Origin: Welwitschia mirabilis
Taxonomy: Eukaryota
Direction: 5' to 3'
NCBI GenBank assembly: GCA_051453625.1
Contig: JBOZIK010000001.1
Coordinates: forward strand, 8,585,711-8,649,625
DNA length: 63,915 nucleotides
The first letter of the stretch is position 1. Each line of letters opens with the position of its first letter. This document shows positions 9,780 to 63,500 of this stretch, in pieces. Under the pieces are notes generated by a model. The model saw nothing but the letters and a program-made list of their open reading frames with translations. It did no database searches and was not told where the DNA came from. The translations under genes and the position numbers were made by a program.

Positions 9780-12774
9780 AAAATCTTTTAAGTTGTTTAC
9801 TTCAAGTTCATCATGAAATAAAGTTGGCTCATGAAGCATTGACCATTTTTCTTCAATTAGATAATGTTATAGAAATAAACTTGGTCTAATTTTTTTCCAC
9901 AATTAAATCATCACTTAAATATTTTTATCTATTTAAACACTCTTAGTGTAAACTTCTTATTTCCTAAATAACACTTTATCATTCCTATTCTAACATCTAT
10001 AATACAATGGGCGATTGCACAAAAATCTCTTCCTAGAAGTAATGGATAATCAGCATTATGTTTAACTTTTATTACAACCACATCAATAGGATAGAATACT
10101 TCTTCAATTTAAATCACTAAATCCTTAATCATGTCTAAAGGTTTCCTAACTAATGTATTCACTAATTTTAAGACAATCCTTATAAGATTTATTCTACTTT
10201 TCAATCCAAGTTGTTGACAAATATATAAAGGAATAATTTTGACACTTACTTCTATACCAGTCAAGAATTTTTTATGTATTTGTTTTCTCCCAAAGTGATA
10301 TTAACAGTTGTTGCCCCCAAATCCTTAAAATTTGAACATTTCTATAAGACTAAGTTATTAATGAATTGGCCTAGGAAGACTTTACTAAGGATAGTTCATT
10401 TTTATTCCTCCTAATCAGATCTTTCCACAACTTAGAATATTTAGGATTTTCTTGTAAAAGTATTTAAAATGGTAAACTTATCCTCAAATTTTTTATTAAG
10501 GCTTTGAAATGTTTATTAAATGTTGGATTAGTATTCAATCTATTAAGCCAAGGGGTAGTAAGTTTCTTACTTTTTTCATGAGAAGAATTTTTCTTTTCTT
10601 TTCTTTATTTTTTAACCTAAAGGAGAAGGAAAAGAATGATTTTCTAAATTTCTACATCCTCTTCTTCCTCATCATTTATATCACTCTAAGATGTTAAAGC
10701 CTCATGGGTAGGAGGTGTTGTCTTATTTCTACTTTTTGTCATAATGTTATAATCTTTCTTAACTTAATTTGGGTTTGGTAGAGGTTATATGGCAAGTGAC
10801 CCTTGTGGTATTTGATTAGCAAGGAAAGTTTGCTGTAAAATATTCATAAGATTTTAAATGTTGGAATTTGTTATTTCTTGGGTTTTCTCAATTTATCAAT
10901 GGAATTTCTAAGTAGATCACCTTGGTTTTGTGATTTGGACAAGCTTACTTAATCCTTAAAGTTATTTGGTTGGATCTAAAATCTTTTTCTAAATGATTGA
11001 AAACAAGAATAATTTGTTTGAAAATTTTTAAAATTTAGTTGTCCATTAATCTTAGATTGAAAAGTATTTTGATTTTTTATTTAACTTTTATTTTGGTTTT
11101 GCTTAAAGTTTAAAGACTTTTAATTAAAATCACACATTTCTTCATAATTTTTTTTCTTTATGGTGATAATAAAGGATAATATTTCATTATATGATAGTTA
11201 TCTTTGCATAAATCCCCAGTTGGAGTTATAACCATACTCTTTTATATTGCCACCTTTGCATCTAAGATCATCTTAGTGTATTTCTCTAAAGTTAAGGTAA
11301 AATCCTTAATGAGATTAGTTGGTTCTTTTTAAATCTTTATTTTTTCCTTCTCTTACTTAACCTCGTTAAGATCTTTAATGATTTGATCTACTATTTAATT
11401 TTTTCTAAGTAAGAGTTTGGGATAAGTTTGACTCACTTCCACTAACTCTTTTAACATCTCTAAGCATTTTCTAATGTAAGGTTCATCACAAATTCATACA
11501 CAAAAAAAGTCAATAAGTCACTTAGTTTAATCCTTGAGTCCACTATAAAAGTAGTCTATTAATTCTTCTTGAGAAAAAGCATCTACAGAATTTGAATATA
11601 AAGCAAAAAATAGTATCTTATAGATAGAGGCATAATCTTCATTAGGCTATTATTGGAAGTTGATTAGTTTTTCTTTATTTTTTTTAATAGTTGTTTTACT
11701 CGTGAATCTCTTAATAAAAGCTTTTTGAACTTGACTCCATGATTTTAAAATCTTATGGGAAATCATTCTTAAATTAAGTTTAGCTTTACCTTTTAAAGTG
11801 ATGGGAAAAATGACCATATAAGTTCTACAACTTATTCTTTTCTTACTATTTTCAAAAGTAAATACTAACTATTCAATATTAATAATGTGTTTTAAATGAT
11901 CTTTACCATGTTGACCACTAAAAATGGGTAAGCATTTAAATTCCTAAGTTTGACATCATCACCAAGAGGTAAATCAAATGTGGTTTGGATTTTACATTTT
12001 TTATCAATTATAAGCTCTTTAAGGGTGATATTAGCATTAGGATTTATGGGTGTAGTTATAGGGACTTCAATAATAAGGGGCAGATTAGGTGAATCGACTT
12101 GCTTTTGCTTTTGTAATGAACTAGACATATTTGAAAAATGATTTTCTCCTAAACTATTATTGAAATAATCTTTGGAAAAATTTTCTTTCATAAAATCATA
12201 TTCTAAAGTAATAATGAAGAAATTTTTAAAATTTTTGAAACTTGTGTACCTTTGGTATGCATACCTAAGTTAAATTCAAAGTCAATCAAATCTTATCAGA
12301 TGTTTTCCTCTATGAATAGCCATTCTCTTTGATATTTTTCTTTTTTACTAGATTTTACAATGTTTTAGCATTCTCAATTTTTAATGTTTAGTGTGCGTTA
12401 TCCCTATGGTCATCCAAACGATTATCTAGATGATAGAAACAAAAAAAATGAAAAATGTAGAAAATAGAAGCATAAAATTACAACTACAGAAAGCTCTGAA
12501 AATAGATTACCATCCTTCTAAGTCATTTAGATGATAGAGGAAATGATAGAAAAACCCTAAATTTTAGTTGTCTTTGCTGCACATCATCTAAATGATGGAG
12601 CAGATGATAAAGCATTTATTTCATAATGCAAAAAAAGACATGACAGAAAGAAAAACCTATGCTACTATAATTAAAAATATAGCGCTGCTATAGGTAAATA
12701 TCCAAAATGAAAACCAAACACCTACCTAAACAATAATGATCCTAAAAAAGAAACCTTCCTTAACAAAAATACTA
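9780..12774 (-). mobile_element. Degenerate Athila-like gag-protease segment B with 5' leader and PBS
   Basis: Gag motif MVIFPITLKGKAKLNLRMISHKILKSWSQVQKAFIKRF (~11700-11817) matches Retrotrans_gag (LFPFSLxGKAKxWL..SW..L..AFLxRF). The protease region 9960-10270 is homologous to 8150-8460. 9780-10850 parallels 7970-8990 and 11220-11540 parallels 9360-9680, with many substitutions. Confidence 0.88.
12757..12774 (-). other. Degenerate tRNA-Asp primer-binding site
   Basis: tccttaacaaaaatacta versus the reverse-complement Athila PBS tccccggcaacggcgcca; lies between the gag leader and the LTR-like sequence. Confidence 0.65.
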
Positions 12775-30912: not shown

Positions 30913-31155
30913 GTCTTTTAAGGCATTTATTTTGATAAATGCCTTAAATATAGAGCTTTTTAACACATTTATTTTACTAATTGGCTTAAAAAAACAATAA
31001 AAATACTTTTAAGGCATTTTTTTTAAAACAAACATCTTAAAAGCCTTTTTGAAATTGTTTTTAAGGCATTTATAAAAATCATTCCTTAAAGAAAGCTAAT
31101 GAAAATATTTTTAAGGCATTTTTCAAACAAATGAATTAAAACCCTTTTTGAAATT
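30913..31155 (+). mobile_element. CACTA subterminal repeat array (left-end type; terminal CACTA not visible)
   Basis: ttttaaggcatttattttgataaatgccttaaatatagagctttttaa matches 43310-43357 in direct orientation, including the non-palindromic aaatatagagctttttaa and ctaatgaaaat blocks. Confidence 0.75.
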
Positions 31156-41225: not shown

Positions 41226-44200
41226 GTATGACTATTTTTAGCTTTCGAAGTCTAAAGATATGAGGACATATGTACATTTTTACTTGATAAAATTTATGAA
41301 AGCCCTTTAGACATTTTATAAATTAATGGTTGTTCACTCTTGATACTATGCTAATTTTTTAATCCATAGAAAATCACTGATTTAACATTTATTTTCTATA
41401 CAAAACATAAGATCATATCTTTATCAAATTATACTTCTTGTCAAAAATTAGTGTGATGGATTTGCCAGCTTCTCTGGGAAGATGGAAATGTGTAATCCAA
41501 TAATCAGGATCCTTGGCCAAATCCTAAATGCAATGTTGTTAAGGATTTCTATCATAATCATAAATTGATTAATGGTGAATCTAGATTTTGTTTTATGTGA
41601 GTCATTTTTCCTTGTAATGAACTTAGTTTTTTTTTAATTAGATGTTATCCTTTTGTAAGCACAATTTACNNNNNNNNNNNNNNNNNNNNNNNNNNNNNNN
41701 NNNNNNNNNNNNNNNNNNNNNNNNNNNNNNNNNNNNNNNNNNNNNNNNNNNNNNNNNNNNNNNNNNNNNNNNNNNNNNNNNNNNNNNNNNNNNNNNNNNN
41801 NNNNNNNNNNNNNNNNNNNNNNNNNNNNNNNNNNNNNNNNNNNNNNNNNNNNNNNNNNNNNNNNNNNNNNNNNNNNNNNNNNNNNNNNNNNNNNNNNNNN
41901 NNNNNNNNNNNNNNNNNNNNNNNNNNNNNNNNNNNNNNNNNNNNNNNNNNNNNNNNNNNNNNNNNNNNNNNNNNNNNNNNNNNNNNNNNNNNNNNNNNNN
42001 NNNNNNNNNNNNNNNNNNNNNNNNNNNNNNNNNNNNNNNNNNNNNNNNNNNNNNNNNNNNNNNNNNNNNNNNNNNNNNNNNNNNNNNNNNNNNNNNNNNN
42101 NNNNNNNNNNNNNNNNNNNNNNNNNNNNNNNNNNNNNNNNNNNNNNNNNNNNNNNNNNNNNNNNNNNNNNNNNNNNNNNNNNNNNNNNNNNNNNNNNNNN
42201 NNNNNNNNNNNNNNNNNNNNNNNNNNNNNNNNNNNNNNNNNNNNNNNNNNNNNNNNNNNNNNNNNNNNNNNNNNNNNNNNNNNNNNNNNNNNNNNNNNNN
42301 NNNNNNNNNNNNNNNNNNNNNNNNNNNNNNNNNNNNNNNNNNNNNNNNNNNNNNNNNNNNNNNNNNNNNNNNNNNNNNNNNNNNNNNNNNNNNNNNNNNN
42401 NNNNNNNNNNNNNNNNNNNNNNNNNNNNNNNNNNNNNNNNNNNNNNNNNNNNNNNNNNNNNNNNNNNNNNNNNNNNNNNNNNNNNNNNNNNNNNNNNNNN
42501 NNNNNNNNNNNNNNNNNNNNNNNNNNNNNNNNNNNNNNNNNNNNNNNNNNNNNNNNNNNNNNNNNNNNNNNNNNNNNNNNNNNNNNNNNNNNNNNNNNNN
42601 NNNNNNNNNNNNGCATGTCTTTTTATTAGATCAAACTCCCTCTTCTATTAGTAATACCTTCTTTTGTTCCTGGGTAAAAAATTTAACTTGGACCTTTTAT
42701 GCTTCTTATACTAGCTCTCAACTCCTATAAAGTCTCATAGTCCCAACAATAGAATCATCTAGCTTCTTTCATGTCTTTATTAAATGTAATATAAGTTACC
42801 TTGCCTTTTCTTTAGTTGGCTTTATGAAGATAGGGTTCCTCATTCATTCCAACTCTAGGTGTAGTATTTCTTTTGTAATATTGGGTGGCTAAACAATGTT
42901 AATCAATATGGACACTATATATCCCCTAAAACCTCTTCACACTGTGTCTAGGTGAAATCATGAAAGGTTCATGATGAGAGGCTAGTACATTCTTATCTAG
43001 GCTAAAGATATAATTTCCATCATAAATATACTAGATATAGGTTTAGACTCCTTTTTCATGAAGCCGTGATATTTCTTTATTCTAAATCTTAGAAGAAGTA
43101 TACTTTGATAGCTTGTAACTCATAATGAAATGAGTAAAGATGCTATCTACTGAGCTGATATGGACTATTCTATTTCTACCCTAAGAATTCTTGCATCTTC
43201 AGCCTTCACTCATATTATGTATTTCCTTTTAAAGCCCAAAGCTTTAGTGCTTCATAGTAGGGTAGGACATAGCTTTCTTTCTTGTAGTTTCACATCTAGA
43301 AATATAAGATTTTAAGGCATTTATCAAAATAAACACCTTAAATATAGAGCTTTTTAAGGTGTTTATGTTAATAAATGCTTAAATGAATCTAATGAAAATT
43401 TTTTAAGGCATTTGTTTAATGAAATTCCTTAAAAGCATTTTCAAAGTTCCTTTTAAGGCATTTATTTAAATAAACATCTTAAAGTTTTAATTTGAATAAT
43501 ATATATTTTTTAAAAACCTAAAATTATATATAAAAAAGGGTTTTTAATGCATTTTGATAAACACCTTAAAAGATAGCATAAAAAAATAACATAAATTTCA
43601 TCTTCGCACTTCTGCCCTAACACCCGTCTTTCACTTTATGCATTGCCAAAAAAAAAAAAAATTTGTTCATTGTCCTACTACCCATATTTTACAAAGTTTC
43701 TACATTTGGTTTCTTACATCAAGACTGAGCCCTCTGAGCACTTGCAATAACAAAATGGCCACTGCTGCATTTTAGGAGACCCCTTGATGTGTTTAATAGA
43801 CAGTTGTTCATTTAACAACTCTCCTCAGTCACAAGAGAAATAGACTTTGGTTTAATAATCATTCATATCTATGCATGCATTGGTTGAAGAAGGCTTAAGA
43901 GTTGCAGAGGATACAGAATGGATAGTAGATCCACATTAGAAACACAAAAACTTCAAGAATAGAAAGTGCATAGTGATCATATAAGAAAGAAGGTGCGATG
44001 AGTGATATCGCTAGGATTGTCAATGGGAGAACTTGTAATTACATAGCAATTCATATAAGTTATGCAATCTACATGTGTTAATTCATTATCATACTAAATT
44101 TCATGGAAATGGTGTAGAAACATAGGCTTAGAAAGGCTAAGCTATGAGATTATCTTATTTATTTCCTTGTCAACCATGAGCTAAGCGTTATGAGATCTAA

Positions 44201-44248
44201 TCATCCCCGTGATATTTTAATGGATCATTCTTTGAGGGCTTTCACATC

Positions 44249-44464
44249 ACCCCTATCATTCTTGTTCATGGCATTTTTGGATTCAGAAAAGGGGTATATC
44301 TAGCTGAAACCCCCTTGTTTTATCTCCATTGAATCAAAAATAATAACTAAAAATTTTGTTAAACTGTAAAATCTTAGAGGAATATCGTATTTTATAGGAG
44401 TAGAGTTGAAGGATGATCACATCTTTGTGCCTGATTTGGGATCTCCCTTTAGAATCCATTATGA
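44249..44464 (+). pseudogene. Two-exon fragment of a plant lipase-like alpha/beta hydrolase (resembles Arabidopsis At1g10740-type proteins)
   Basis: TPIILVHGIFGFRKG|gt, a 76-nt intron (44294-44369, acceptor decayed to aa), then NLRGISYFIGVELKDDHIFVPDLGSPFRIHY, versus the recalled PPIVLVHGIFGFGKG|RLGGLSYFAGAEKKDERVLVPDLGSLTSIYDR. Confidence 0.85.
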
Positions 44465-44732
44465 ATTATTTACTAAATAAGAACTATTTCTGGTTATTTC
44501 TTGATCTTTAGACCTATTTATTTGATAATTTTAAGAGAATGTCAATATTGTGTAGTATTTATTTTAACCTTTTTAAATTTAATTTTACGAGTCTTTTAAT
44601 TACCTACCCAATTTTTTTTAATTTCTTTTATTTGAGTTACCTAATTTTTGAGTATTTAATCTATGTCTTTGTGACTTTGACATTTATACTATGTGATTTT
44701 TAAACAAATAAACAAATACATAGGAAAGAAAT

Positions 44733-46845
44733 ATGAGGAGAACATACTCTCTTGAGGTAGATAAATGCTCTAGCATAGAATTGCTTGACAGCTTAGGAGT
44801 TGTCAAGTCAGAAGAATCCAATGAATGCAGCTATGATGAACTACTTGAGGATGCACTATATAATGTTCTTGACAGGGAATACGTTGAAGGAATTCTAGAT
44901 AAAGAATTTATAAAAGAAACAACCCTTGTAAAGGTTCACAAAAAGCCAAAATCAATTACATTATATGGGTTCAAGAAACTAGGAGTGATGGTAACCAAAG
45001 AATACCCTAATTATGACTTAATGATTAATCTATAGTTCGAAATTAGATTTGATTTTACTCTTAAGCTATAAGCATTATCTTCATTTTATTTACATTAACA
45101 TAAGATGTAGCTTGAGGAGACTCTCTAAGAAAGCTACCTATCTTATTTGCGAGTGTGATGTATATGAAATCTCCCACTAGAAGAATTGTTTATATTCTAA
45201 TTATAGGAATGTAGGGAAAAAAGTATTGAAGCTACCAAGGTTAGTGATTGTTCTTGCAAATTTTGGTTCTAAATTAAGCTTATGGATGAAGTGTCTTCCT
45301 AAAGGATTGGTGGTTGTGCCTCATCAATCCTTTGAATTCAAATGAAAAGATTACTATCCCATGGTTTTTAAGTTTTCTTCATTTCTAAATGACTCTTACA
45401 AGATCAGTACAATAGATAGTCTAGTATTGTAAAGCATTGAATTTGAAGGTTTTTTAATAGGTCATTATAGTATTATGATTTTACTTGTTATGTTAGCTTG
45501 TTAATTATCTTTTCATACCATATTTCCTTCTCAAACATGTGTTTAGTGTGTCATTTATGATATTACACTATTGTGAAACACCCACTTCTTGTCCCTTCCT
45601 TTCTTTGACCAAAATGTTTTTAGGGTTAAATACATGTTTATCAAACCTGTATTCTTTATAAGTTGAGCTGCTTACCCTTTCTTTTGATAATTAAATTCTA
45701 TTCTTTGTTAGTTTTCCTTGTATATTCTTCTAATAGTGAAATTCACTCTCATTCTTTATCTATGCTTTTCACATAGATGTGTATTGGATTTAATAAAGCT
45801 CAATGGGTAAGTTACAGAATATTAATCTAATCTTAAGTCATTTCCTTTTGTAATCCCCAAATATACTGAAATTCAATACATTAATATATTCTTGTTTGTT
45901 TAGGCACCTTCAATAATACTTTCATATGGATTCTACTAATTACATGATGTCTATTTGCAACACTAAAGTACTAAGGAAATTATCCTCACCTAGAAAAAAT
46001 GGCAATGTGTTTTACATGTCACTTGATGATTAGCTCATGATAAAAACAATGCACAAGGTTGAAGTGAAAGTAGGTCCTTAATAAAGACTTGGATCCCTTT
46101 GATACTAAAACTTAACCAATGGATAGTCAATAATAAGGATAATTATTTGCAGTATTTTGGTTCTTATCAGTACTTAAATTACATTTTATGACAAATTTGT
46201 AAATGTGGAGTAACTTTTGAGATTTTTGTAGGTTTTCCTTTATAATACTACCAAATTATTTTGGGCATGTAAGAACCTATCAAAAAAACCCAATTACAAG
46301 GTTCTATGGTTTTCATGCTGTTAAACATGTAAGAGGTCAAAAGGTAAAAAAATAATTTCTAAAACTCTAAAATTATGATCATAGATCTTCTTAATAAGCA
46401 TATTGTATTTAACTATTTGTATTATTTATTTAGCCAAGTTCTTCATGTTCTAAAATAGGTCTAAATCTTATTGAGATCTATTAAATTGAAGAGTCCACCA
46501 CTAATTTGGTACTAAAAATCAAGAGGTTAGGTTTATGATTATGCACAATATGTTCTATTCAGATATGNNNNNNNNNNNNNNNNNNNNNNNNNNNNNNNNN
46601 NNNNNNNNNNNNNNNNNNNNNNNNNNNNNNNNNNNNNNNNNNNNNNNNNNNNNNNNNNNNNNNNNNNTATTGAGATCTATTAAATTGAAGAGTTCACCAC
46701 TAATTTGGTACTAAAAATCAATAGGTTAGGTTTATGATTATGCACAATATGTTCTATTCAGATATGTGCATCTAACTTGAAAGGGTTATCACAAGGTCGA
46801 ACAGCTAATAAGGGTGAAATTTAAGAAACTACTACACTAAAGGAA
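44733..46845 (+). pseudogene. PIP5K: Phosphatidylinositol-4-phosphate 5-kinase fragment (PIP5K7/8/9-like), five exons with introns, truncated at both ends
   Basis: ~44733-45046 RRTYSLEV...VLDREYVEGIL...TKEYPNYDLMINL*FEIR (donor decayed to at); 45207-45371 NVGK...ANFGSKLSLWM...PHQSFEFK*KDYYPMVF; 45904-46069 HLQ*YFHMDSTNYMMSICNTKVLRKLSSPRKNGNVFYMSLDD*LMIKTMHKVEVK; 46232-46343 ILPNYFGHVRTYQKNPITRFYGFHAVKHVRGQK (frameshifted); 46725-~46845 VRFMIMHNMFYSD...NLKGLSQGRTANKGEI*ETTTLK. These match plant PIP5K motifs (YDLMLNLQLGIR, FKWKDYCPMVFR, LRELSSPGKSGS, MIKT, DLKGSS). Confidence 0.96.
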
Positions 46846-49800
46846 AACAGTAATCTTCTAGGCAAGATCAATCTAGATGGGGTGATGAATGAAATAAAAG
46901 CAAAAGAAATAGAACACATTGAGGGGTTTTAAGTTTTAGTACCATTCTATATCTAATCATATATTTAGATGAAATATTTCTACTTAGACATTCACATTTA
47001 ATTCTCTTATATTACCTTCCTTTTTTAAATGGAAATAGACCTCAAGCAATTTTATTAGATATTTCAAATATAGTTAGAAGGAATTCTTTTAAGAAAACTA
47101 GCTCATCCATAAAATGAATGTCTGCTTGATTAAATAAGAGAATTGTAGATGCTTAACTATCTTTCAAGATAGATGTTGGGCTAGTATTGTGAGTAGTAGA
47201 AACATGCCTTCTGACTATGTAGAGATGATTAATAGAACTAGTATTTATATAGAAGAATCTACTTCATTTAACACATGGAGTATACCTTGTACCTCAAGAA
47301 TTGCTTAAAAAGACTAGATCCTGAAGCCTGATAATTTCAAGAATAAGCTTACCTAAGAAATGGATTATTTTCAAAGAGATTTAGCATCTCCATCTATGAA
47401 TTCAATGGGTATCATCTAAAGTTAGAATTTTTTAGATTAAAAAAATAATAACCATGAGTAAATCTCTACCTCATGAGTATGGGAAAAAGGAGGCATATAA
47501 AAAGCTGTTAGCATTTATTATGAAAATATTAATCAATTATTTAGAAAAGCTTCTTAACATTGAAGATGTTGCAGTGTCTAATATTTAAAAAATATTAAAT
47601 ATCATATATTACCAAATTAATTATAACATTGCACTGTCATATGCTAATAACCTCTTCTTTATGCCTGTAATTAGCAAAATCTTTCAGGGTTTTAATATAT
47701 TACTGTGTAATTAGTAGAATATTATTATATTATAAAAAGCCTTTTTTATTTTTTATTTTTTCTAGTGAAATTATTACAAAGAAAAAATAGAAGATGCAAG
47801 ACCATCACAACAAGTAAAACACAGACTTAAAAATAACTTTTTTCTAATAAAAAACATGCCAAATATCTCCATGATCATGCCAAATACATCTTACTTAAAA
47901 AAAAAGTTTATTAAAAGGATACTCTTTCATCACAATATAAATGAGGTAAAAAGTTGTACTATAATTATTAATATACAAACATGAATTAGTTTTATTAAAT
48001 TTATACTTTTTCTAAAGAAGACATATTTTAGGTAGGGAGAAATCCATTGCTATAGAGCTCAAATGAATTTCAATAATCCATATTTACTTTCAATGTTTTC
48101 TTGTAGCCTTTGATCAAGACATTATGCAAAGTGGAATTTACACAACTAAAGCTTTCTACATTGCTTAAAACAATGATAAAAGTATTGCTTAAAATAATGT
48201 AATAAGCTCATCATCATAGATCTTACTCTTTCCATTTGTAAAATATCTTCTGCAATATGTTTCAAAAGACCATCATGAGAAGGTATCTTTAAACCCATCC
48301 TAGACATCTATATGATAGAAATGTTTCACATACAATTAACTAATAAGTCACACTTAGACTAATAAGATAAAATTTTTACACATCCTCTGTAACACACCAT
48401 TTCTACCAAAGTGTGTAAGAAAATTTTGAAGTTGCACATATTAAAAATACAAACTGGTCAAACATAGAAGAAGCTAAGGAAATAAGTATGTATATCATAC
48501 ATTCTTGTTTATGCATTAATTTTATTTTTTTTCCCTAAAGGNNNNNNNNNNNNNNNNNNNNNNNNNNNNNNNNNNNNNNNNNNNNNNNNNNNNNNNNNNN
48601 NNNNNNNNNNNNNNNNNNNNNNNNNNNNNNNNNNNNNNNNNNNNNNNNNNNNNNNNNNNNNNNNNNNNNNNNNNNNNNNNNNNNNNNNNNNNNNNNNNNN
48701 NNNNNNNNNNNNNNNNNNNNNNNNNNNNNNNNNNNNNNNNNNNNNNNNNNNNNNNNNNNNNNNNNNNNNNNNNNNNNNNNNNNNNNNNNNNNNNNNNNNN
48801 NNNNNNNNNNNNNNNNNNNNNNNNNNNNNNNNNNNNNNNNNNNNNNNNNNNNNNNNNNNNNNNNNNNNNNNNNNNNNNNNNNNNNNNNNNNNNNNNNNNN
48901 NNNNNNNNNNNNNNNNNNNNNNNNNNNNNNNNNNNNNNNNNNNNNNNNNNNNNNNNNNNNNNNNNNNNNNNNNNNNNNNNNNNNNNNNNNNNNNNNNNNN
49001 NNNNNNNNNNNNNNNNNNNNNNNNNNNNNNNNNNNNNNNNNNNNNNNNNNNNNNNNNNNNNNNNNNNNNNNNNNNNNNNNNNNNNNNNNNNNNNNNNNNN
49101 NNNNNNNNNNNNNNNNNNNNNNNNNNNNNNNNNNNNNNNNNNCATTCTTGTTTATGCATTAATTTTATTTTTTTCCCTAAAGGGCTTTTTCCTCAAAAGG
49201 GATTTTGAGGCATTTTAAACATGAATGCCTCAAAAGGGCTTTTGAGGCATTTTATTAGATAAGCATCTCAAAAGATGTTTTAAGGAGTTTTATCAAATAA
49301 GCACATAAAATAATTTTTAAGGCGTTGATTGGAAAAGCACCTTAAAAAGATTTTAAAGATATTTTTATTAAAATTCCTTAAAAATACCTTAAAAGACTAG
49401 GCTTTTAAGGCAAGGCTTTTTAAGAAGTTTTGTGAAGAAATGCCTTAAAAACTTTTAAGGAATTTTTAAAGGCATTGCAAGGCATATTAAAAATTCCTTA
49501 AAAGCCTATATTTCTTGTAGTGGTTATAATTTGTTTGGTGTAGCTCAAGGTAGATCCTTCGTCTTCTTATATTAGGTGAAAGCTTTATCATGTAATGTTA
49601 AGTAAGATGGTTAAGATTCCTCATCTTGTAGTATTAGGTAAAGTGTTCATCCTATAATATTAGGTGGAGGTTGTCATGATGAGTTCAACATGTATCCTTT
49701 AGAGATAGATTCCTCTACCAACTAGTGCTATCATCACATATCTCTAATGCCACCTCCACATGAAATTACCACATGTCTTCCAATGCAACTATCACATATC

Positions 49801-50200
49801 TTCTAGTGCCACTACTACATGCCATCATTCAGCTTTAGTTTATTTCACATTCTTTAAATTACTACTAAATTCCTGAAATTATCATGAAAAAATGCATAAT
49901 ATTAAGTATGGCATAGAAAATAGCTGAAAACATATTTTTATGATTAAACCAATTAATTTAATATCTTTACTATGATAAATTAATCAAATATAATTGGTCT
50001 AAATGTTAATTTTTACATGATGACACAGCTTCTAATTTTACTTATGCTAGACTCTTAGCAAAAACTTGATAAAGAAATGATTAACATGGATAACTTATTT
50101 AAGAAAAAATAATAAAGTATGAAAAATGATAGTCTTTTAAAAATTTTAACTAATTATTAAAAATAAGCATCAAAATCAAAAAAATTCTGTGAAAAATGGA

Positions 50201-53200
50201 TGTCATACCCCCTAATCAAAAACTAAACTTTATCCTCAAAGTTTAAAAGATGAAAAAAACTTAATATAACTTTTAAGAATATATTATCTTATTTTTAAAA
50301 TGAATTCTCCATGAAGAGTTATTTTATTGGAAAAGAAAAGTAGGAAAAGTTATGTAACTAAGCTATAAAGAAAAGAAAGAAAAAGGAAAATGATAAAGGA
50401 TGCATGAAGTAAAAGGAAATTATATGAGAAATTGCTAAATAATGAGGTTTCATACATAATTATTATAGATGAAAGCAATATAAAGAAATAAAGGATGAAA
50501 AGTTAAGAGGAAGAATAATACAAATGAAGAAAAAGATGAAAATTAAGATGATAAAGAAAGTGTTAAAATGAAATAGAAAATGGATGAAAACAAAGTCATA
50601 GTCTATTTCTATGAATGATAATAGCTTGTTAATGACCTAAGATAATTCTAAATTAGAATAAATTTTATATAAAGAAGCATGAGATGAACAAAGGGAAATG
50701 TATGGCAGTGCTAGTGGGTATTAGCAGTGGCACTGGTTTTCTATGATAAATGATCATGAGTTTGGAATGGTGAACCAATGATGATAAAATCATTATATAA
50801 GTGAAATGGATGAATGATAAAATGATAGAAAGGCTCAAAATGAATAAAAATTTAGTAAAATTAAAGCCCTTTTATCCTGATAATATTTTAGACTTACTTA
50901 GTCCTAGTGTGACTTATAAAAGGAAAGATTTTATTATAACAAATATAAATGTACCTTTAGGTATGATCTCTTATAAAGATAAAAGGGTAATGCATGCAGT
51001 GTGAAAGGGTGAAATGAATTAAAATAAAAATGCCACTAATTATTCTACCATGCATGTTATGAATAAATAAGACTATAAAACTAAAGTAATGGCTAGAAAA
51101 AGTTTATCTACTTATGGATTTAAGTTAAGATATGGCAAAACATTGATAAAGTAAATTCATGCTAGTTGAGAGCAGTAAAGGATTTTAAGTACCAAATGTT
51201 AAAACAAATAATACATAATAAGTTTCTAATCCCATCTTAATTTCTTTCCAATTTTTACCCTTCTACAATCATAAGTGGTATCTTTTAAGCCTTTGACCAT
51301 AATAAGCATTTATTTTTATGACACCTTATTCTAATAGAGTTGAACATGTTACGCATGATGAAGTTAGTGTTGTACTACTAGTAAGCATTGATAGCTATGA
51401 TGTAGTTCAACATACTACAAATGAATCATTAGAGCTATATTAATAGCGAGGATCCATAATCATGATGTTATTAAATAAACCCAATAAAACTAATCAAAAA
51501 TAAAATTTTACTTTTTGGAGAAGAAATGTTATTTTTCTTTTGATTCTACTCTGATATTCATTTTTTTAATGTATATAGGAGGGGTAATTAGCTTATTAGC
51601 CTACTTAAGAAATATCTTATCCCCATAAATGCATTTGAAAAAGACACATCATGAAAGTATAAAGATCATCTTTTCTTTCCTTAATTTCAAATTATAGACA
51701 TCAAATGAATGTAAGCCTTACCAAAAGAACTTAAAGATAAAGATGAATTATTCTTGAAAATAAAGGATTCATCCAATTTTAGATCACCTAATGAATGAAA
51801 AAGATATTTTATTCTTATTTATTTAAAAATGCCACTACCTAAGATTAGTAAGTCTCATAAACTCATAATATCATGGTGATCTATAAGCCTTATAAAATAT
51901 TGCAATGCTGGAAGAGGTTTTTAATAAATTTTAAGGCACTGATGACTTATTTTATATTAAGGGTGGTATTTAAAGTTTTCTAAACAAAAATGCTTAAGGT
52001 AATAATTATATAGGTGGTAATGCTTCAATGGTTTTAGGTAAGAGAGACCATTAAGAAAAAGTTTTTAGAATGTTTTTAAGTTTTTTCAATGTAAATCTAA
52101 TCTAAACAGAAAATATAATCTAAAAGAAAAATATAATCTAGAATTATGCAATGAAGATAAAAATTTCAAGCAAAATAATTTTCTAATATGAGGCATGTAT
52201 GAAGGTTCAAGATAATAATGAACACAAAATGTGGATGATGCATTGATGTTATGCAAAGCATTTTGAACTGGAAGAGAATTCATGTAGATTATTATGCTTG
52301 AGCCCATAAAATTAGGAGGAACATCAACACAAGTAGTAAAAATTATGTTTTTAAAATAAAAAATAGTATGTTCTTTAGCTTATTTATGCTTCTTTAACAG
52401 GTCATGTAAGATATCATTTTTTAGATGAAGATAAAATTGAGTTAAAGACCATTAGAGAAGGTAAATGTTCATTAAGAAAATTATCAAAATATGATTCCAT
52501 AAAGAAGTTTTATCTTCTTCATTGCAGTTTGGATTTTTCTTAGTAGATAAAGATGAAAATGAAATGGTTAGATTAGCAGGTTTTTTAGGAAAACACTCTT
52601 CATAGGATTGATCACGTATGGGATCTTTGGTAATGTTCTGTTCATCATAAGATGGATCATGTATGGGCTCTTTGAATATGGTTGTAATTTGAAGAAGAAT
52701 TTTCTTCAATGTTGTTCTTTTCATTAATGTCACTTATTTATTCATTCTTTGTTGTATAACTCACTAAGATATAGCCTTTCTTAAATGGTTTATCATCTTT
52801 TAATGATTGATCATACTTTTATATGTTTATTTCTCTTATAAAGTATAGCCTTTATGTAATTAGTCATTTACTCTCTAGTGTGTTTTTAAACTCAAGGTCC
52901 TTATGGGTTTCCTCATTTATTTCTTCCTCATTTCTAAATAATATGGCTTGCATATCATCAATTTTGCTATCATCAATCCTTTTAAGGTTTTCAATATTTT
53001 TAGGATTAGGTTCATGAAATGTAGAAAGGCTTTCCTCTTGTTGTTAATCAAGTTCGAGTTGATTGTCATCTTTATTATAGTTTAAGAAGTAAAGAATTTA
53101 TTGGAGAATTTGATCATGAGTTTAGGTAGTTTGTTCAAGATTTCTTAAGAAGGATGAATATCTCTTAAGGAGTTGTTCATGATTATAAATAATTTGTGTT

Positions 53201-56200
53201 TGGATTTTTAAGAAATTTTTTAATGATTCATCTAACTAAGTACATGAAGAAGGTTGGTCAACTTTGGGAGGTAAATAATAAGAATGAGATGATGATGGAG
53301 ATTAATGAGGTGATAAGGGATCAAGATTATGAAGAACGGTGGTGGTATGAAATCAATTTTTTTTTGTTTGAAATAAGTATTTTGAAACTAAAAATTGAAA
53401 AGAGGCTGATTTATATGTAGATTGGGTTCTAAGCTTTAAAGATAATCTCTAAAGATTTTCAGAGTATTGGAAGGATCTGAAGGTTTTAAATGGTATGGAT
53501 TATTGTAATCACATTAAAGGTGGTCATCTAAATTTTCCATGGGTTGAATGTAATCTCCTATAGTTTGCTTAAGTTAGACATGATTAGCAAAATTACAANN
53601 NNNNNNNNNNNNNNNNNNNNNNNNNNNNNNNNNNNNNNNNNNNNNNNNNNNNNNNNNNNNNNNNNNNNNNNNNNNNNNNNNNNNNNNNNNNNNNNNNNCA
53701 TTAGTTTCTTCATCAATCTTAAAATATATAGTTTGGGTATTATTAATTTTACTAGCATTAATCCTTTTAGGGTTTTAAAGACTCTTACATTTATGAAATG
53801 TAAAAAGGTCGTCATATTCTTATTGGTTTGGCTTAGGTTAGTTGTTAGATTAACTAGGGTTTAAAGAAGAGAAAATTTATTATAGCATTTAAGTATGGAT
53901 TTGGTTAGTTTATTCAAGATTACTTAAAGAGAAGGAATGTTTCTTAAGAAGTTATTTCTAATCATATATAATTTGGTTTTGAATTTCTATTACTTTTCTT
54001 AATGATTCCTCCAACAAAGTACATGAAGAAGGTTGTTGTTGCTTAGATGAGTAAGGATTAAATGGTGATTAATATTGATAATGTTATAAAGAATAAGGTT
54101 TATGATGAATGGTGAAAAGCATATCAAATTCTTTTTGTTCAAAATAAGGGTTCTCAAACTCAATCTTACAAAGAGTTTGATATATATGCAGATGGGGTTC
54201 TAGGTTTTAAAATATTCTCCAAAGCTTTACCTAGTTTCGTAGTGTATTTGCATTAAAGTTAATACCTTAAAGTTTTCTTAGGTTAAATGTAATATTCTAT
54301 AGATTTTTTAGGTTGAATGTAATGTTATAATCTGCAAACATGTAGAAATCATGTCAGATCATCTTCTCTGTTATCTCTGTATAATGTATAGATGTTTTAG
54401 GTGATGTGCTTGTAGTGACAATGTCACACACACTGAAGTAGGTGAGCTATAAGGATTTGCATAGTTTCCATATATAGATTTCAAATCATGTTCCCAATTC
54501 ATGTCTATTTTTTCAAATCAATTTATAAAATTTACTATAGTATTACATTTTCATAATTTTTTAGGTTTCAAAAGGGGCCTGATATTGGACAGAATTCAAA
54601 ATATCCAAGATAAAACTAAAGAAAATTTTAGAGTTCTAAGCAAAAATACTAGTAGCATTAATTAGGTCTACTATAAATGTTATTCTTTAGAAGAAAAATT
54701 ACTCAAAAAAAGGATGAAGTTAAGTTTGGAGATATGTAAAATATTTCATGTTGTGGGGTATACAAAATGGATAACAAAAAATAAAATGATAGGTAAATGA
54801 GCTAAATTAACAAGTATGGGATTTATAATTTGAATAGAAAAATTAAAATGCAATAAAAATAGAAACTAATTATAGAAATTTAAGTCTTTTTTAAGTTTTA
54901 TATTTTCATTTTTTAATTCTCTTTTAAGGCATAACTTGTAAAAAAATCATTAGACTTACAATACAAAATATCTGATATGAAAATAATTTCTACAGTAAAT
55001 GGAAAAACTAAATAAAAATCTAAACTAAACCAATTTAGATATTATCAAAAATGAACTAGTGTCCATCACTAAAAAGACAATAAACTTAAATAAACACTTA
55101 AAAGAAAAAGAAAAGGATCAATTTAGGTATTATTAGAAAGGAACTAGTAGAAAACCCTAAAAGAAATGAAAATGAAAAAAAAAAAAAATTACAAGTAAAA
55201 CAATTTTTATATCTGCGGAAGTGACCAATACTAATCGTTATAAGTGCTAAAAAAGACCTAAAAATCTAAAATAAAACTTTTCAAGGAAGAAAAATCATGT
55301 AGCTTCTATTAAGCTATTATGCCATTATCCTTGTCAATAGTGTCAAAATATGTTTGCAAATGAACTTTGTTCTTAAACTTTGGAAGATGGAAAAATTTAA
55401 TACAACTTTTAACAACTTGTTATCACACTTTTAGAATGCATTCTTCTTGAAGAGTCATTTTATTAGAAAAAATGAGCATGCAAAATAATGCAACTACACT
55501 ATAAAGCAAAGGGAGAAAAAGTAAAATGCTAAAAGATACAAGAAGTAGAAAGGAATTCTATGCACAATTGCTAAGTAATAAGGTTCCACACATGATTACT
55601 ATATATGGAAGTAGGATAAAGAAATAAAGGATGAAAAGTTAAGAGGTAGAAATGAAGAAAAAAGTAAAAATAAAGATGTTAAAGTAAGTCTTAAAATAAT
55701 ATTATAAAATTAATAAAAACTAAGTTACAGTCTCTTTCTATGAATGATAATGACCTACCAATGATCTAAGATGATTATTAAGCATAATAAGAGGTTATGT
55801 AAAGAATCATAAGATGAACAAAGAGAAATAAATAATATGCCAGTGAGTATTAGCAATCACACTGGTTTTTTGTAATAGATGCTTATAAGTTTAGAATGAC
55901 AAATCAGTGGTAACGCAGTGGTTACAAAAGCACAAATAGTGAAGTGATGAATTCATAGAAAGGATAAAGATGAATAAAAATTTAGTAAAATTGAGTCCTT
56001 TGGGTTTTATTGATATTTTAAACTGACTCATTCCTATTGTGGCTCATGGAAGGAAAGATTTTATCACAAAAAATACGAATGTACCTTTAGGCATGCTTTC
56101 TCATAAAGATGGAAGGGTAAATGCATGTAGTGTAGAATGGTGAAATGAATGGAAATAAAAATACAACTAATTATTCTATCATGCATAATATGAATAAATG

Positions 56201-56330
56201 AGACTAAAAAACTAAAGGAATGTACTTGAAAATGTTTATTTAATTATGAATCTAATTTAAAATAAGGTAATGCATTAATAAAGCAAATACATGCTACTCA
56301 AGAGTTGTGAAATATCATAAGTACAATGTT
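50201..56330 (-). mobile_element. Probable non-autonomous LTR retroelement (LARD-like) with ~1-kb diverged LTRs and a tRNA-Asp PBS
   Basis: Direct repeats ~50201-51205 and ~55351-56330 align throughout with many substitutions, and both start tg. A decayed PBS (55328-55345) abuts the right LTR. No PR/RT/INT motifs recognised in the ~4-kb interior. Confidence 0.65.
55328..55345 (-). other. Degenerate tRNA-Asp primer-binding site
   Basis: tccttgtcaatagtgtca versus tccccggcaacggcgcca: six C>T/G>A transitions and one transversion; adjacent to the LTR start. Confidence 0.7.
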
Positions 56331-60500: not shown

Positions 60501-63500
60501 GAACTTTTTTCTATAAGATTAGAATCTAACCATTTAGAGGTTAACTTATTTATAAAAGGTGTACTTAGATATTATATAAAAGGATAAGTTTACTATGTTT
60601 AAATTGCTTATGAATAATCTTTTTATCATGTTTGAACTTGGCTTAGGCTTTATGAATGAGTTGACAATGTATAGCACTAATATAATTTTCATCTAAATGT
60701 TCAAGTTAGACTAAGAAAGTCTTAAGATTTTCATTCAAGTTTATAATGTTAAATTGATAGGTGAATCGATAGGAGTTATAACAAACATTAACTGGCAAGA
60801 TACAAACCTTCTTATATACAAGTTTATATAGTGAAAACCCTAGATAGTTTCACCAAATTATATGGTAAGCCTAAATAATATCATTAAGTTTAGGAAACCA
60901 AGTTTTCTTATTAATATAGACTAATTTTTGGAACATATTTTTAATTTCTTTATTCACAATTTTGGCATGGTCATTAGTTTGTAAATGATAAGCACATGTA
61001 ATTCTATATTCAATTCCAATGGATAAAATACGTTTTTAAAAAATTTTATTAATAAAATGGGTTATTTTATCACTAATGATGGTTTTAAAAAAACCAAAGC
61101 GTTGAAAGATATGAGTTTGGACAAAAATTGTAAACAATTTTGGCATCATTTCTAGTAGTAGAAATAGCTTCGACTCATTTGGTAACATAATCAACAGAAA
61201 TTAGGATGTACCTTTTATCATGAGAAGGTGGTTTAATAGGACCTATAAAGTCAATCCCTAAATAATAAAAAGGTTCACATTTAAGCATAGGTTTAAGAGG
61301 CATATCTTGAAAATGAGTTAGGCTACCATGAAATCAACAAGTATTTCACCTTCTAGTAAAGTCAAAATAGTCTTTAAAAAGGGTAGGTCAATAAAAACTA
61401 GAATGAAGAATTTTCATTATAGTAATTTAGCCACTAAAGTCTTTTCTACATACCTATCCATGGTAAGTATTAAATATTTCTAAGCTTTTCCATTTAAGCA
61501 CACATTTATGCATGATTTAATATTTGCGTCTTTTATTAAAATGGGGTTCATTTCATTCATAGTCACTGATCCTATGAAGAAAATATTTTCATTAGTTATG
61601 ATTCCAATGCTAATACTTTTTTTTTATGGTAATAAGGTAGTTCGCAATATCAACATACTAGTGAGTAGAATGAGTGGAAGAGATGGCATCAAATTATGCA
61701 ATAGCAAATAGTTATTCATCTAGGAAGGAGTCATTTATGAAAAGTTTATCATGAGAACAAGAAATTCGAGATAAATGATCTGCAATGCTATTATTTTTTT
61801 CAACCTTATTAATGATGGTAAGATTAAATTATTACATGAGAAGGATTCACCTAATAAGTTTGACACTAGAATATTTCTTAATTATAAAATAGCATATGGT
61901 TACATGATCTGTGTAAACATTAATATGGAAGTTAAGAACATAGTGTCTAAGATGATGAAGACAAACGATGATGGCAAGCATTTCCATTTTAGTAGTAGTT
62001 TATTTGGATTGGGCTTTAGACAAATTTTTACTATGATAGGATATGTATTTAAAATCATTTTCATAATTTTGACCAAGAACCCCACCCACAGTAATGTTTC
62101 TTACATCACACATGAGTTTAAAATCTTTAGTTCAATTAGAATCCATGATAATAGGTTTAGAAGAAATGTTTTCCTTAAGTGTATCAAATACAAGTTAACA
62201 TGAATCATGCTAATCAAATTTTTAGCATCTTTTTTGAGTAATAAGGAAAGGAATTTATAGACCTTGGCATAATCATAAATAAAACAATGATAGAAACTAT
62301 CATAACCAAGGAATGATCTAACTTGTTTGATATTGATTGGAGGAATAAGATTTTTAATGATACCAACTTTTATGGAGTTCATCCTAATCCCTTTCTTAGA
62401 AATATGGTGATCTAAAACAATTCCATTATTAACAAGGAGAAAACACTTTTCCCATCTCAAATGTAGATAACTTTATATACATTGATCCAATACTTTCTCT
62501 AATCTCTCTATGATTTATTCCAAAGTTTCATAAAAGATGGAAAAACTATTTATAAATATTTTAATAGAATCCTCTATTATGTTAGAAAAGATCCCTATCA
62601 TTACTTGTTAAAAAGTCCTAGGGGCATTGCAAAGTTTAAAAGACATTCATCTAAAGGAAAATGTTCCAAAGGATGAGGTAAAAGTTATTTTTTCTTGATC
62701 TTCACTTGCTATGCAAACCTTATTATGATCATTATACCCATCAAGAAAATAATAGTAGGCATGACCTTGGATTTTATTAAGCACTTAATCAAGAAAGGAT
62801 AAAGGACAATCATCCTTTTAGTGACATAATTAAGTTTTCTAAAATTAATGCACATTCTCTATTTCCCACCCTTTTTTGAAACTACTATCAAAGGGCTAAT
62901 CCACTCACTATTAGATATAGCATAGATGATCTCAAAATTCATAATTTTATAAATTTCATCTTTAAATACATACTTGAGGAGTAGGTTGAGCCTTATTTGG
63001 GGTTATCTAATAGGTTTAGCATTATCTTTAAGGTCAATTTTGTGTTGGACTATGGAAAGAGGAATGAAAACTAAGTCTTTATGGATCCAAGAAAAAGCAT
63101 CTTCTTTAGATGTCATAAGGAAGATCAATTTGGATTATTTTTAAAGAGTAAGAAGATAACTTATTATGAAAGGTTTCTTCATATGTTTAAATAGAAAAAT
63201 ATATTTTAGACATTTGGACAACTCCTTCAGTTATAAGTTAGAATTTTCACTTGTTGTCTTATCTGTTGTGGGGATAATAGACATTAGATGATACTCTTCA
63301 AAAAATATTTCTATTAAATAAACATGTTAGCTTTTTCTTAGTTGAAATATTCCTCATTCTCATACTTAAGATAGTGTATTTTAGTCAGGTCATCATATAA
63401 AATTAGTTCATATAGCATTATTAATCTCTCCTCAATTAGGTGATGTTGTAAAAATAAGGTTGGTTTAAGTTCTTCTTATAAGTTAAACTTATCTCCTATT

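What the first reader, a model, noticed from the sequence alone, without database searches (positions are those of the whole stretch)
43291..49522. Pack-CACTA element carrying intron-containing fragments of two unrelated host genes (lipase + PIP5K)
Seen in sequence: CACTA-type TIRs (22/27 match) and palindromic subterminal arrays enclose no recognisable transposase but do enclose a 2-exon lipase-like fragment and a 5-exon PIP5K fragment, both on the + strand with introns retained. Established knowledge: CACTA elements have CACTA termini, subterminal repeats and 3-bp TSDs, and Pack-type DNA transposons capture genomic, intron-bearing fragments. Inference: this is an old, now pseudogenised gene-shuffling element that took DNA from at least two loci.
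Basis: partly seen in the sequence, partly recalled or inferred. Interest (0 to 1): 0.72.

Follow-up and report, generated by a model that had tools for sequence, protein, structure and literature searches.

The report
Decayed CACTA transposon carrying PIP5K fragment
This is an old, broken, non-autonomous CACTA-type DNA transposon in a repeat-rich plant region that holds an intron-containing piece of a lipid-kinase (PIP5K) gene, which is a known kind of gene-capturing element and so fairly ordinary.

Summary
The structure is largely real. The right end (49508-49522, minus strand) is an exact En/Spm-type terminus, CACTACAAGAAATAT. It pairs with a degenerate left end (CACATCTAGAAATAT) in a 32-nt, 81% inverted repeat. 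Both ends are followed by mirror-image arrays of a TTTTAAGGCATTT motif spaced about 50 bp apart.

The PIP5K fragment is confirmed. Five collinear + strand pseudo-exons match residues ~314-622 of an 833-aa MORN+PIPK protein. GT-AG intron borders are kept, and stops and frameshifts are present. No other PIP5K exon lies in the 64-kb window.

None of 87 internal ORFs hits a transposase family.

Not confirmed:
- The lipase fragment rests on one 14-aa motif.
- The 3-bp target-site duplication reads TTT versus GTT.
- That the unit ever moved as one piece.
- Donor genes and other family members.

Both internal N gaps are flanked by duplicated sequence, so the first (100 N) is probably an overlap, while the second keeps a 601-N size estimate and may be real.

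Verdict: most likely a decayed Pack-CACTA-type element, a new member of a known kind and of low interest.

The parts
43291..43322 (+). Left (5') terminal inverted repeat, degenerate: it begins CACATCTAGAAATAT instead of CACTACAAGAAATAT.
   Evidence: pair I7 (32 nt, 81% complementary to 49491-49522); (3 mismatches to the right-end 15-mer).
43310..43571 (.). Left subterminal array: palindromic 33-nt units built on TTTTAAGGCATTT...CCTTAAA, about 50 bp apart.
   Evidence: D1 copies at 43310, 43352, 43401, 43451; inverted pairs I5, I6, I8, I19, I21; alignment.
44249..44290 (+). Candidate lipase-like piece 1: a 14-aa motif like the first strand and oxyanion-hole HG loop of family-I lipases. Weakly supported.
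   Evidence: 11/14 identical to a metagenomic ORF (L002:65-943) that hits Abhydrolase_1/PGAP1 and PDB lactonizing lipases. This ORF was found with the motif itself, so the match is circular. No Pfam, PDB or Atlas hit for the ORF.
44370..44480 (+). Candidate lipase-like piece 2 (36-aa ORF). Unsupported by any tool.
   Evidence: 128 of 1000 shuffles reach its score against the expected part of the L002 lipase ORF.
44724..45050 (+). PIP5K pseudo-exon 1: linker region plus the start of the kinase core. One in-frame stop.
   Evidence: P0136 residues 314-423, E 0.001; P0138 residues 355-379, P0117 residues 165-186.
45229..45371 (+). PIP5K pseudo-exon 2. One in-frame stop. GT donor at 45372.
   Evidence: E 0.002; P0138, E 3.6e-5; splice context; the frame carries over into exon 3.
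45904..46069 (+). PIP5K pseudo-exon 3. Two in-frame stops. AG acceptor at 45902-45903 and GTAGGT donor at 46070.
   Evidence: 344 proteins at E<=1e-3, best 2.8e-11; PF01504, E 3.9e-8, 33.3 bits against a cutoff of 27; E 4.4e-14. In the exon ORFs of other plants the homology stops at the same point.
46232..46343 (+). PIP5K pseudo-exon 4. One frameshift near its start. AG acceptor and GT donor kept.
   Evidence: PF01504, E 1.4e-5; P0109, E 5e-5.
46725..46930 (+). PIP5K pseudo-exon 5, with a frameshift near 46772 and at least one stop. Its first 42 nt also occur at 46526-46567, before the gap.
   Evidence: P0117 residues 354-375 at 46707-46772 and at 46508-46564; residues 380-405 at 46774-46845; P0136 residues 591-622.
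46568..46667 (.). 100-N gap flanked by a 99-nt duplicate (46469-46567 = 46668-46766, 98%). Probably overlapping contig ends rather than missing sequence.
   Evidence: D3.
46931..48541 (.). Interior of unknown origin. No protein-family hit on either strand.
   Evidence: no family at E<=1e-3 for the ORFs here.
48542..49142 (.). 601-N gap flanked by a 42-nt duplicate (48500-48541 = 49143-49183, 97.6% with one indel). It is either a false gap or about 0.6 kb missing; too small for a CACTA transposase.
   Evidence: D9.
49191..49505 (.). Right subterminal array with the same motif family, mirror image of the left array.
   Evidence: D1, D2, I1-I4, I15, I22; 73% over 94 nt to the left array, inverted.
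49491..49522 (-). Right (3') terminal inverted repeat. On the minus strand it ends in the exact CACTACAAGAAATAT.
   Evidence: I7; 0 mismatches. It equals the first 12 of the 13 bases of the maize En1 TIR listed in Table 2 of PMC3193017.
43278..43289 (-). Extra TIR-like 12-mer AACTACAAGAAA, one base outside the left end and in the same orientation as the right terminus. Unexplained; possibly the stump of a neighbouring tandem copy.
   Evidence: only 2 sites in the window match with up to 1 mismatch, this one and the right terminus; no subterminal array upstream of it (41 of 300 shuffles reach the score).
30916..31148 (+). Solo subterminal array of the same family, of the 5' type. It has no TIR and no matching right end in the window.
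   Evidence: 77.1% over 166 nt to 43310-43471; similarity ends just upstream of the first motif.

Best explanation
The segment is a decayed, non-autonomous DNA transposon of the CACTA (En/Spm) superfamily, about 5.4-6.2 kb long. Its cargo includes a piece of genomic DNA copied from a PIP5K gene: five exons and four introns, covering the middle third of the protein. It may also carry a short piece from a lipase-like gene.

Inferred mechanism, from what is established for En/Spm and for Arabidopsis Pack-CACTA: a transposase supplied in trans by an autonomous CACTA element recognised the CACTA termini and the repeated subterminal motif and moved the unit by cut and paste. The host DNA was most likely acquired when two nearby insertions of the family lost complementary ends and the outer termini were then used together (Catoni model), or by repair-associated copying.

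Since then the copy has been silenced and has decayed. The left terminus is mutated, the exons carry stops and frameshifts, and base composition has reached that of the surrounding repeat-rich DNA. The element is therefore immobile and non-coding today.
For: Shown by tools:
- An exact En/Spm-type terminus sits at the outer edge of the right array and is the only exact copy in the window. It matches the TIRs cited in passages of PMC3193017 Table 2, PMC7210773 and PMC6379663 (CACTACAA).
- The termini form a 32-nt, 81% inverted pair.
- Mirror-image arrays of one motif with the same spacing lie at both ends, and a third related array at 30.9 kb shows this is a repeat family.
- PIP5K homology is significant: one search gives 344 proteins at E<=1e-3, best 2.8e-11; one search gives PF01504 above its cutoff.
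- The PIP5K pieces are collinear, all on the + strand, limited to residues ~314-622 of 833, with GT-AG kept at all four introns.
- No PIP5K match at E below 0.7 lies outside 44730-46890 in the window.
- 0 of 87 internal ORFs hits a transposase family.
- Outside the element, 2 of 80 ORFs give Pfam hits at E<=1e-3, and both are retrotransposon gag/RNase H remnants.
- GC is 0.28 and CpG observed/expected is 0.12, the same inside and outside the element.

Inferred: trans-mobilisation, the way the cargo was captured, and movement as a unit.
Against: - The left terminus reads CACAT, not CACTA, with three transversions in the first 7 bases.
- Inverted pairs of this length and identity are common in this AT-rich stretch: 85 pairs in 7.1 kb. 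The TIR alone would not be convincing.
- The flanking triplets differ (TTT versus GTT).
- A second canonical-looking terminus abuts the left end. A solo 5'-type array lies 12 kb upstream. Partial ends of different insertions are therefore present in this neighbourhood.
- No second copy with the same cargo, no empty site and no donor gene could be examined.
- The right terminus sits on a different contig from the cargo, joined only through a 601-N gap with a 42-nt overlap.
- The lipase cargo is unconfirmed.
Confidence: 0.65

Rival explanations
1. The two termini come from two separate insertions or partial copies of the same CACTA family that landed a few kb apart. The DNA between them, including the PIP5K pseudogene piece, was already there and has never moved as a unit. 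At most this would be a precursor of a Pack-CACTA, not a transposed one.
For: - A solo 5'-type array without a partner lies at 30916-31148.
- An extra canonical 12-mer terminus abuts the left end.
- The TSD is imperfect (sequence read).
- Passages of PMC6379663 report closely spaced tandem insertions and terminal deletion remnants as common for Pack-CACTA.
Against: - The two ends are in the correct inverted orientation with matching motif spacing.
- The PIP5K piece is truncated at both sides well inside the termini, and the missing exons are not found in 43 kb upstream or 14 kb downstream.
- At about 19% arm divergence an old 3-bp TSD would often have lost a base, so 2 of 3 is uninformative.
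Confidence: 0.2
2. A CACTA element is present, but the gene fragment or fragments reached its interior by another route: a nested insertion of a different gene-carrying element (for example a Helitron or a Pack-MULE), or a segmental duplication or filler-DNA repair event.
For: - About 1.4 kb on the left and about 1.6-2.3 kb on the right of the gene pieces are of unknown origin.
- A weak 31-nt, 74% inverted pair (44085-44115 / 48394-48424) brackets the gene pieces (I12).
Against: - That inverted pair is no better than many chance pairs in this AT-rich DNA (85 pairs).
- No hallmark of another element family was recognised, although no specific search for Helitron termini was made.
- Gene capture by CACTA elements is documented (passages of PMC6379663 and PMC8903248).
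Confidence: 0.1
3. This is not a transposon at all: chance inverted similarity in AT-rich, low-complexity DNA next to an ordinary processed or duplicated pseudogene.
For: - Many inverted pairs are present in this stretch.
- Sites with 3 mismatches to the TIR are only about twice the chance expectation (13 against 6.08; 2 of 100 shuffles reach 13).
Against: - An exact 15-mer with the canonical CACTA terminus lies at the edge of an array.
- Three related arrays share an ordered motif spacing.
- Introns are retained, so the pseudogene is not a processed one.
Confidence: 0.03

Closest known systems
Arabidopsis Pack-CACTA1/Pack-CACTA2 (Catoni et al., Nucleic Acids Res 2019, PMC6379663; passages read)
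   Same: - It is a non-autonomous element whose TIR begins CACTACAA.
- The terminal regions are conserved while the interior differs.
- The cargo is genomic, exon-plus-intron host DNA, with no transposase.
- Tandem neighbours and short terminal remnants occur nearby; here these are the abutting 12-mer and the solo array.
   Different: - Here the left TIR is degenerate and the TSD is not intact.
- The element is heavily decayed and mobility is not shown.
- Family size and donor genes are unknown.
- The subterminal motif (TTTTAAGGCATTT) is specific to this family as far as I could see. The only sequence I searched the papers for was the 12-base TIR.
Maize En/Spm (En1) and its defective dSpm/I derivatives
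   Same: - The right terminus equals 12 of the 13 bases of the En1 TIR CACTACAAGAAAA (Table 2 of PMC3193017).
- Arrays of a short motif in both orientations lie next to the TIRs. From recalled knowledge, this is the arrangement bound by TnpA in En/Spm.
   Different: - No TnpA/TnpD-like coding sequence is present.
- The subterminal motif sequence differs from the En/Spm motif as I recall it.
- Typical dSpm elements are internal deletion derivatives rather than carriers of foreign gene fragments.
Pack-TYPE elements as defined by packFinder (Gisby and Catoni, PLoS Genet 2022, PMC8903248; passages read)
   Same: - TIR-bounded.
- There is a hit to a coding gene and none to a transposase.
- The interior is less repeated than the ends.
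   Different: - packFinder also requires an intact TSD and clustering with at least one similar element.
- Here the TSD is 2 of 3, and clustering could be tested only inside the window, where one partial relative was found.
Gene-fragment-carrying CACTA elements of soybean and morning glory (named only as cited in the introduction of PMC6379663; details recalled)
   Same: They are CACTA-type termini enclosing several unrelated host gene fragments.
   Different: Those elements were found as active insertions causing visible mutations. This one is an old, inert copy, and only one of its cargo fragments is confirmed.

Membership tests
CACTA (En/Spm) superfamily | Termini beginning CACTA(C/G): right end | tested here: met
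   49508-49522 on the minus strand reads CACTACAAGAAATAT, the only exact copy in the window. It matches the published TIRs.
CACTA (En/Spm) superfamily | Termini beginning CACTA(C/G): left end | tested here: not met
   43291-43305 reads CACATCTAGAAATAT, with 3 mismatches, all in the first 7 bases. This is compatible with decay but is not a CACTA terminus as it stands.
CACTA (En/Spm) superfamily | The two ends form a terminal inverted repeat | tested here: met
   32 nt at 81% (I7). The mirror symmetry extends over about 250 bp through the motif arrays.
CACTA (En/Spm) superfamily | Subterminal arrays of a short motif in direct and inverted orientation | tested here: met
   (D1: 7 copies; D2, D4, D8; many inverted pairs within and between the ends).
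CACTA (En/Spm) superfamily | 3-bp target-site duplication | tested here: inconclusive
   TTT versus GTT, 2 of 3. GTT is present on both sides if one extra T at 43290 is allowed. About a 1-in-5 chance of 2 of 3 or better in this composition (my estimate).
CACTA (En/Spm) superfamily | Transposase genes (needed only for an autonomous member) | tested here: not met
   0 of 87 internal ORFs of 28 aa or more hit a transposase family, so a non-autonomous member at most. The 601-N gap is too short to hide one.
Pack-TYPE / Pack-CACTA | Interior matches a host coding gene and no transposase | tested here: met
   PIP5K. Transposase.
Pack-TYPE / Pack-CACTA | Captured DNA is genomic (introns retained) | tested here: met
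   Four spacers of 162-532 bp (less any false gap) with GT-AG borders. The reading frame carries across the exon 2/3 and 4/5 junctions. The exon 3 end coincides with where the homology stops in the exon ORFs of other plants.
Pack-TYPE / Pack-CACTA | Belongs to a cluster of elements with similar termini | tested here: inconclusive
   One partial relative in the window (30916-31148, 77%). A genome-wide test was impossible.
Pack-TYPE / Pack-CACTA | Intact parent gene elsewhere; fragments from more than one locus | not testable with these tools
   No genome is held. The second cargo (lipase) is unconfirmed.
Pack-TYPE / Pack-CACTA | Moved as a unit (empty site, or copies with the same cargo) | not testable with these tools
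No copy of the cargo lies elsewhere in the window.
PIP5K (Pfam PF01504), functional gene | Complete open kinase domain | tested here: not met
   Only residues ~314-622 of 833 are represented. There are in-frame stops in exons 1, 2, 3 (two) and 5, and frameshifts in exons 4 and 5. It is a pseudogene fragment.
Alpha/beta-hydrolase lipase | Recognisable hydrolase fold segments beyond the first strand (nucleophile elbow and so on) | tested here: not met
   Only a 14-aa N-terminal motif matches. No Pfam, PDB or Atlas hit. The second piece is not significant.

The most novel reading that the evidence does not exclude
The locus may preserve an intermediate stage of the capture process proposed for Pack-CACTA. 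Three things lie within 19 kb: a stump of a tandem neighbour's terminus one base from the left end (43278-43289), a solo 5' remnant 12 kb upstream, and a composite element with host DNA between family ends. That would be natural, non-Arabidopsis evidence for capture by close tandem insertion followed by complementary terminal deletions.
Probability: 0.1. Interest if true: 0.4.

Novelty: new member of a known kind. Interest (0 to 1): 0.2.

Why it matters
Pack-type DNA transposons shuffle exon-bearing pieces of host genes, and CACTA-based ones are less well catalogued than Pack-MULEs. A curated example with defined termini gives a seed for annotating this family in the source genome: the 15-base TIR plus the TTTTAAGGCATTT motif at about 50-bp spacing. 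It also flags a PIP5K-like pseudo-exon series that gene predictors could mistake for a gene. This copy is inert and decayed, so its biological effect today is probably nil. The assembly note is practically useful for anyone using this scaffold: the first internal gap probably, and the second possibly, is an overlap of contig ends rather than missing sequence.

Tried and rejected
- **Whole genome.** The search for other copies returned 'no genome held'.
- **Read laying.** Laying three DNA runs and one RNA run over 42613-51000 was meant to close the gaps and to look for empty sites and transcripts. Nothing can be said about presence/absence polymorphism or expression.
- **Run search.** 13 of 24 listed rows hold part of the stretch, from 4 studies and two organism labels (best shares 0.78 and 0.54). 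No RNA holder is listed. None of these runs was laid, so this is not used as evidence.
- **Word-indexed protein searches.** The 103-aa ORF, PIP5K exon 4 and the lipase piece all found nothing.
- **PDB searches.** PIP5K exon 4 gave only chance hits. The two lipase pieces gave none, or chance only.
- **ESM Atlas.** No usable hit for either lipase piece.
- **Metagenome pattern scan with the lipase piece.** 428 stretches matched a pattern and 2 passed.
  - One (L001) matches only the part of the query beyond the presumed splice donor and is treated as chance.
  - The other (L002) is a bacterial lipase. It shows where the motif sits in the fold, but it was found circularly.
- **Lipase piece 2 against that lipase.** Not significant. 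In one search, 232 of 1000 shuffles reach the score against the whole ORF and 128 of 1000 against the expected part.
- **Paralogous uninterrupted target site.** A search inside the window found none.
- **Left flank as another copy's 3' subterminal array.** Not supported: 41 of 300 shuffles reach the score.
- **Earlier findings of this scan.** Looked up by place, sequence and words; nothing was found.
- **Tandem-repeat scan of the flanks.** Nothing informative.
- **Rejected: a native PIP5K gene broken in place.** No further PIP5K exon lies in the window, and the only other Pfam hits in it (2 of 80 ORFs) are retrotransposon remnants.
- **Rejected: a processed pseudogene.** Introns are retained.

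Full report
**Setting**

- The window is AT-rich eukaryotic, plant-like DNA, with GC 0.28 and CpG observed/expected 0.14.
- It contains 19 runs of N.
- Outside the finding, 2 of 80 ORFs of 58 aa or more give Pfam hits at E<=1e-3. They are an RNase H-like domain of a reverse transcriptase (6445-6618, minus strand) and a retrotransposon gag (11653-11868, minus strand).
- No intact gene was recognised. No whole genome is held for the window.

**Termini**

- The repeat finder extends this to 32 nt at 81% (pair I7). On its own that is weak, because 85 inverted pairs were found in the 7.1 kb examined.
- What makes the pair convincing is its position and content.
  - The right end is an exact CACTACAAGAAATAT and the only exact copy in the window. 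One search found 13 sites with up to 3 mismatches against 6.08 expected, only one of them exact.
  - Its first 12 bases equal those of the maize En1 TIR, as listed with other CACTA TIRs in Table 2 of PMC3193017 (passage). They include the CACTACAA core used for Arabidopsis CACTA and Pack-CACTA (passages of PMC6379663 and PMC8903248).
- The left end reads CACATCTAGAAATAT, so it is degenerate at 3 of its first 7 bases.

**Subterminal arrays**

- Seven copies of a 33-nt palindromic unit built on TTTTAAGGCATTT...CCTTAAA lie at 43310-43483 (4 copies) and 49240-49449 (3 copies). Many further partial copies and inverted pairs occur within and between the ends.
- I aligned the left end, the reverse complement of the right end and a third array. 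The TTTTAAGG motif recurs at the same ~50-bp spacing in all three.
- The third array, at 30916-31148, is 77.1% identical to the left array over 166 nt. It has no TIR and no partner in the window. It shows that this is a repeat family and that partial ends occur alone.

**Cargo: PIP5K is confirmed**

- Pseudo-exon 3, read through its stop with X, finds 344 proteins at E<=1e-3 among 1.84 billion representatives. The best has E 2.8e-11 at 59% identity.
- The same exon passes the Pfam PIP5K gathering score: 33.3 bits against a cutoff of 27, E 3.9e-8.
- One full-length hit, P0136 (833 aa), has MORN repeats plus a PIP5K domain. tblastn of it against the window gives five collinear + strand matches for residues 314-622:

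| Window coordinates | E-value |
|---|---|
| 44730-45050 | 0.001 |
| 45238-45372 | 0.002 |
| 45896-46072 | 4.4e-14 |
| 46245-46337 | 0.022 |
| 46774-46890 | 0.022 |

- P0117, P0138, P0148 and P0109 confirm these matches and add the piece at 46508-46564, which is duplicated at 46707-46772.
- The only other matches in the window have E above 0.7 and are scattered on both strands.
- Splice contexts are kept: exon 2 ends before GT at 45372; exon 3 runs from an AG acceptor to a GTAGGT donor (45904-46069); exon 4 likewise (46232-46343); exon 5 starts after an AG.
- The reading frame carries across the 2/3 and 4/5 junctions.
- The exon 3 end coincides with the point where the homology stops in the exon ORFs of other plants.
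- The fragment has in-frame stops in exons 1, 2, 3 (two) and 5, and frameshifts in exons 4 and 5.
- It is therefore a truncated genomic copy with introns, long dead.

**Cargo: the lipase is not confirmed**

- A pattern scan of metagenome contigs matched 428 stretches, of which 2 passed.
  - One, L002, is an ORF in which 11 of 14 residues equal 44249-44290 (E 0.017 for the window).
  - That ORF is an alpha/beta hydrolase related to solved lactonizing lipases (best E 1.8e-16). In it the motif is the first strand and HG loop of the fold.
  - Because the ORF was found with the motif, this shows only what the motif resembles.
- The second piece does not align to the following residues of that lipase: 128 of 1000 shuffles do as well.

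**No transposase**

- 0 of 87 internal ORFs of 28 aa or more hit a transposase family.
- Besides PIP5K there are only four hits, at E 0.008-0.05, all below their cutoffs and unrelated to transposases.
- Given the decay this is moderate evidence. However, the known interior (5531 bases) plus a 601-N gap leaves little room for CACTA transposase genes alongside the cargo.

**Boundaries and TSD**

- The flanking triplets are TTT and GTT (2 of 3), and the 5-bp flanks match 2 of 5.
- At about 19% divergence between the arms, an old TSD would often have lost a base, so this neither supports nor refutes a single insertion.
- An unexpected detail is AACTACAAGAAA at 43278-43289 on the minus strand, one base outside the left end.
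  - It and the right terminus are the only two sites in the window within one mismatch of the 12-mer (0.60 expected per window).
  - Its position at the boundary is unlikely to be chance.
  - The DNA upstream of it has no subterminal array.
  - It could be the stump of a tandem neighbour. Passages of PMC6379663 describe direct tandem insertions and short terminal remnants left by aberrant excision. I could not test this.

**Assembly**

- Both N runs inside the element are flanked by duplicated sequence: 99 nt at 98%, and 42 nt at 97.6% with one indel.
- PIP5K exon 5 is split by the first gap and partly duplicated across it, so that gap is almost certainly an overlap of contig ends.
- If both gaps are overlaps, the element is about 5390 bp.
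- The right terminus is linked to the cargo only through the second gap.

**Interpretation**

- The best reading (0.65) is a decayed non-autonomous CACTA element of the Pack-CACTA kind carrying a PIP5K fragment.
- Shown: family-type termini and arrays, the nature of the cargo, the absence of a transposase, and the decay.
- Inferred: trans-mobilisation, the capture route, and that the unit moved as one.
- The main rival (0.2) is that two nearby insertions or remnants bracket resident DNA. Under the Catoni model that would be a precursor rather than a transposed element.
- Delivery of the cargo by another nested element (0.1) and pure chance (0.03) are less likely.
- The kind is already described in Arabidopsis, maize and rice. 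Soybean, morning glory and wheat are named only in the cited introductory passage. This is therefore a new member of a known kind, and of low interest.

Noticed in passing
window 43278-43289 (minus strand): A second near-canonical CACTA terminus (AACTACAAGAAA) lies one base outside the left end, in the same orientation as the right terminus. It and the right terminus are the only two sites within one mismatch in the whole window. No subterminal array lies upstream of it.
   Followed up: partly
window 30916-31148: A solo subterminal array of the same family (77% to the left end) with no TIR and no partner end. It is possibly a terminal remnant of another copy and consistent with local transposition.
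   Followed up: partly
window 46469-46766 and 48500-49183: Both scaffold gaps inside the element are flanked by duplicated sequence (99 nt at 98%; 42 nt at 97.6%), so contig ends overlap and the gaps are probably artefacts. The other 17 N runs in the window were not checked for the same pattern.
   Followed up: partly
window 50226-51200 and 55363-56330: A direct repeat of about 975 bp at 77% identity, 5.1 kb apart, just downstream of the element. It is possibly the LTR pair of an old retrotransposon. GC skew is strongly positive across 50-56 kb.
   Followed up: no
whole window: There is extreme CpG depletion (observed/expected 0.12-0.14, GpC about 1.0) and GC of 0.28 throughout, inside and outside the element. 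This is the signature of long-term cytosine methylation and deamination in repeat-rich DNA.
   Followed up: partly
window 6445-6618 (-), 11653-11868 (-), 62104-62472 (-): Decayed LTR-retrotransposon coding remnants are present: RT RNase H-like (E 9.4e-6) and gag (E 1.4e-4). A 123-aa ORF looks by eye like a reverse-transcriptase/RNase H connection, but it gave no Pfam hit at E<=1e-3.
   Followed up: no
protein P0016: One database hit to PIP5K exon 3 is itself an odd 152-aa chimera-like ORF with substitutions similar to those in this pseudo-exon. It may be another decayed PIP5K fragment in some other plant assembly.
   Followed up: no
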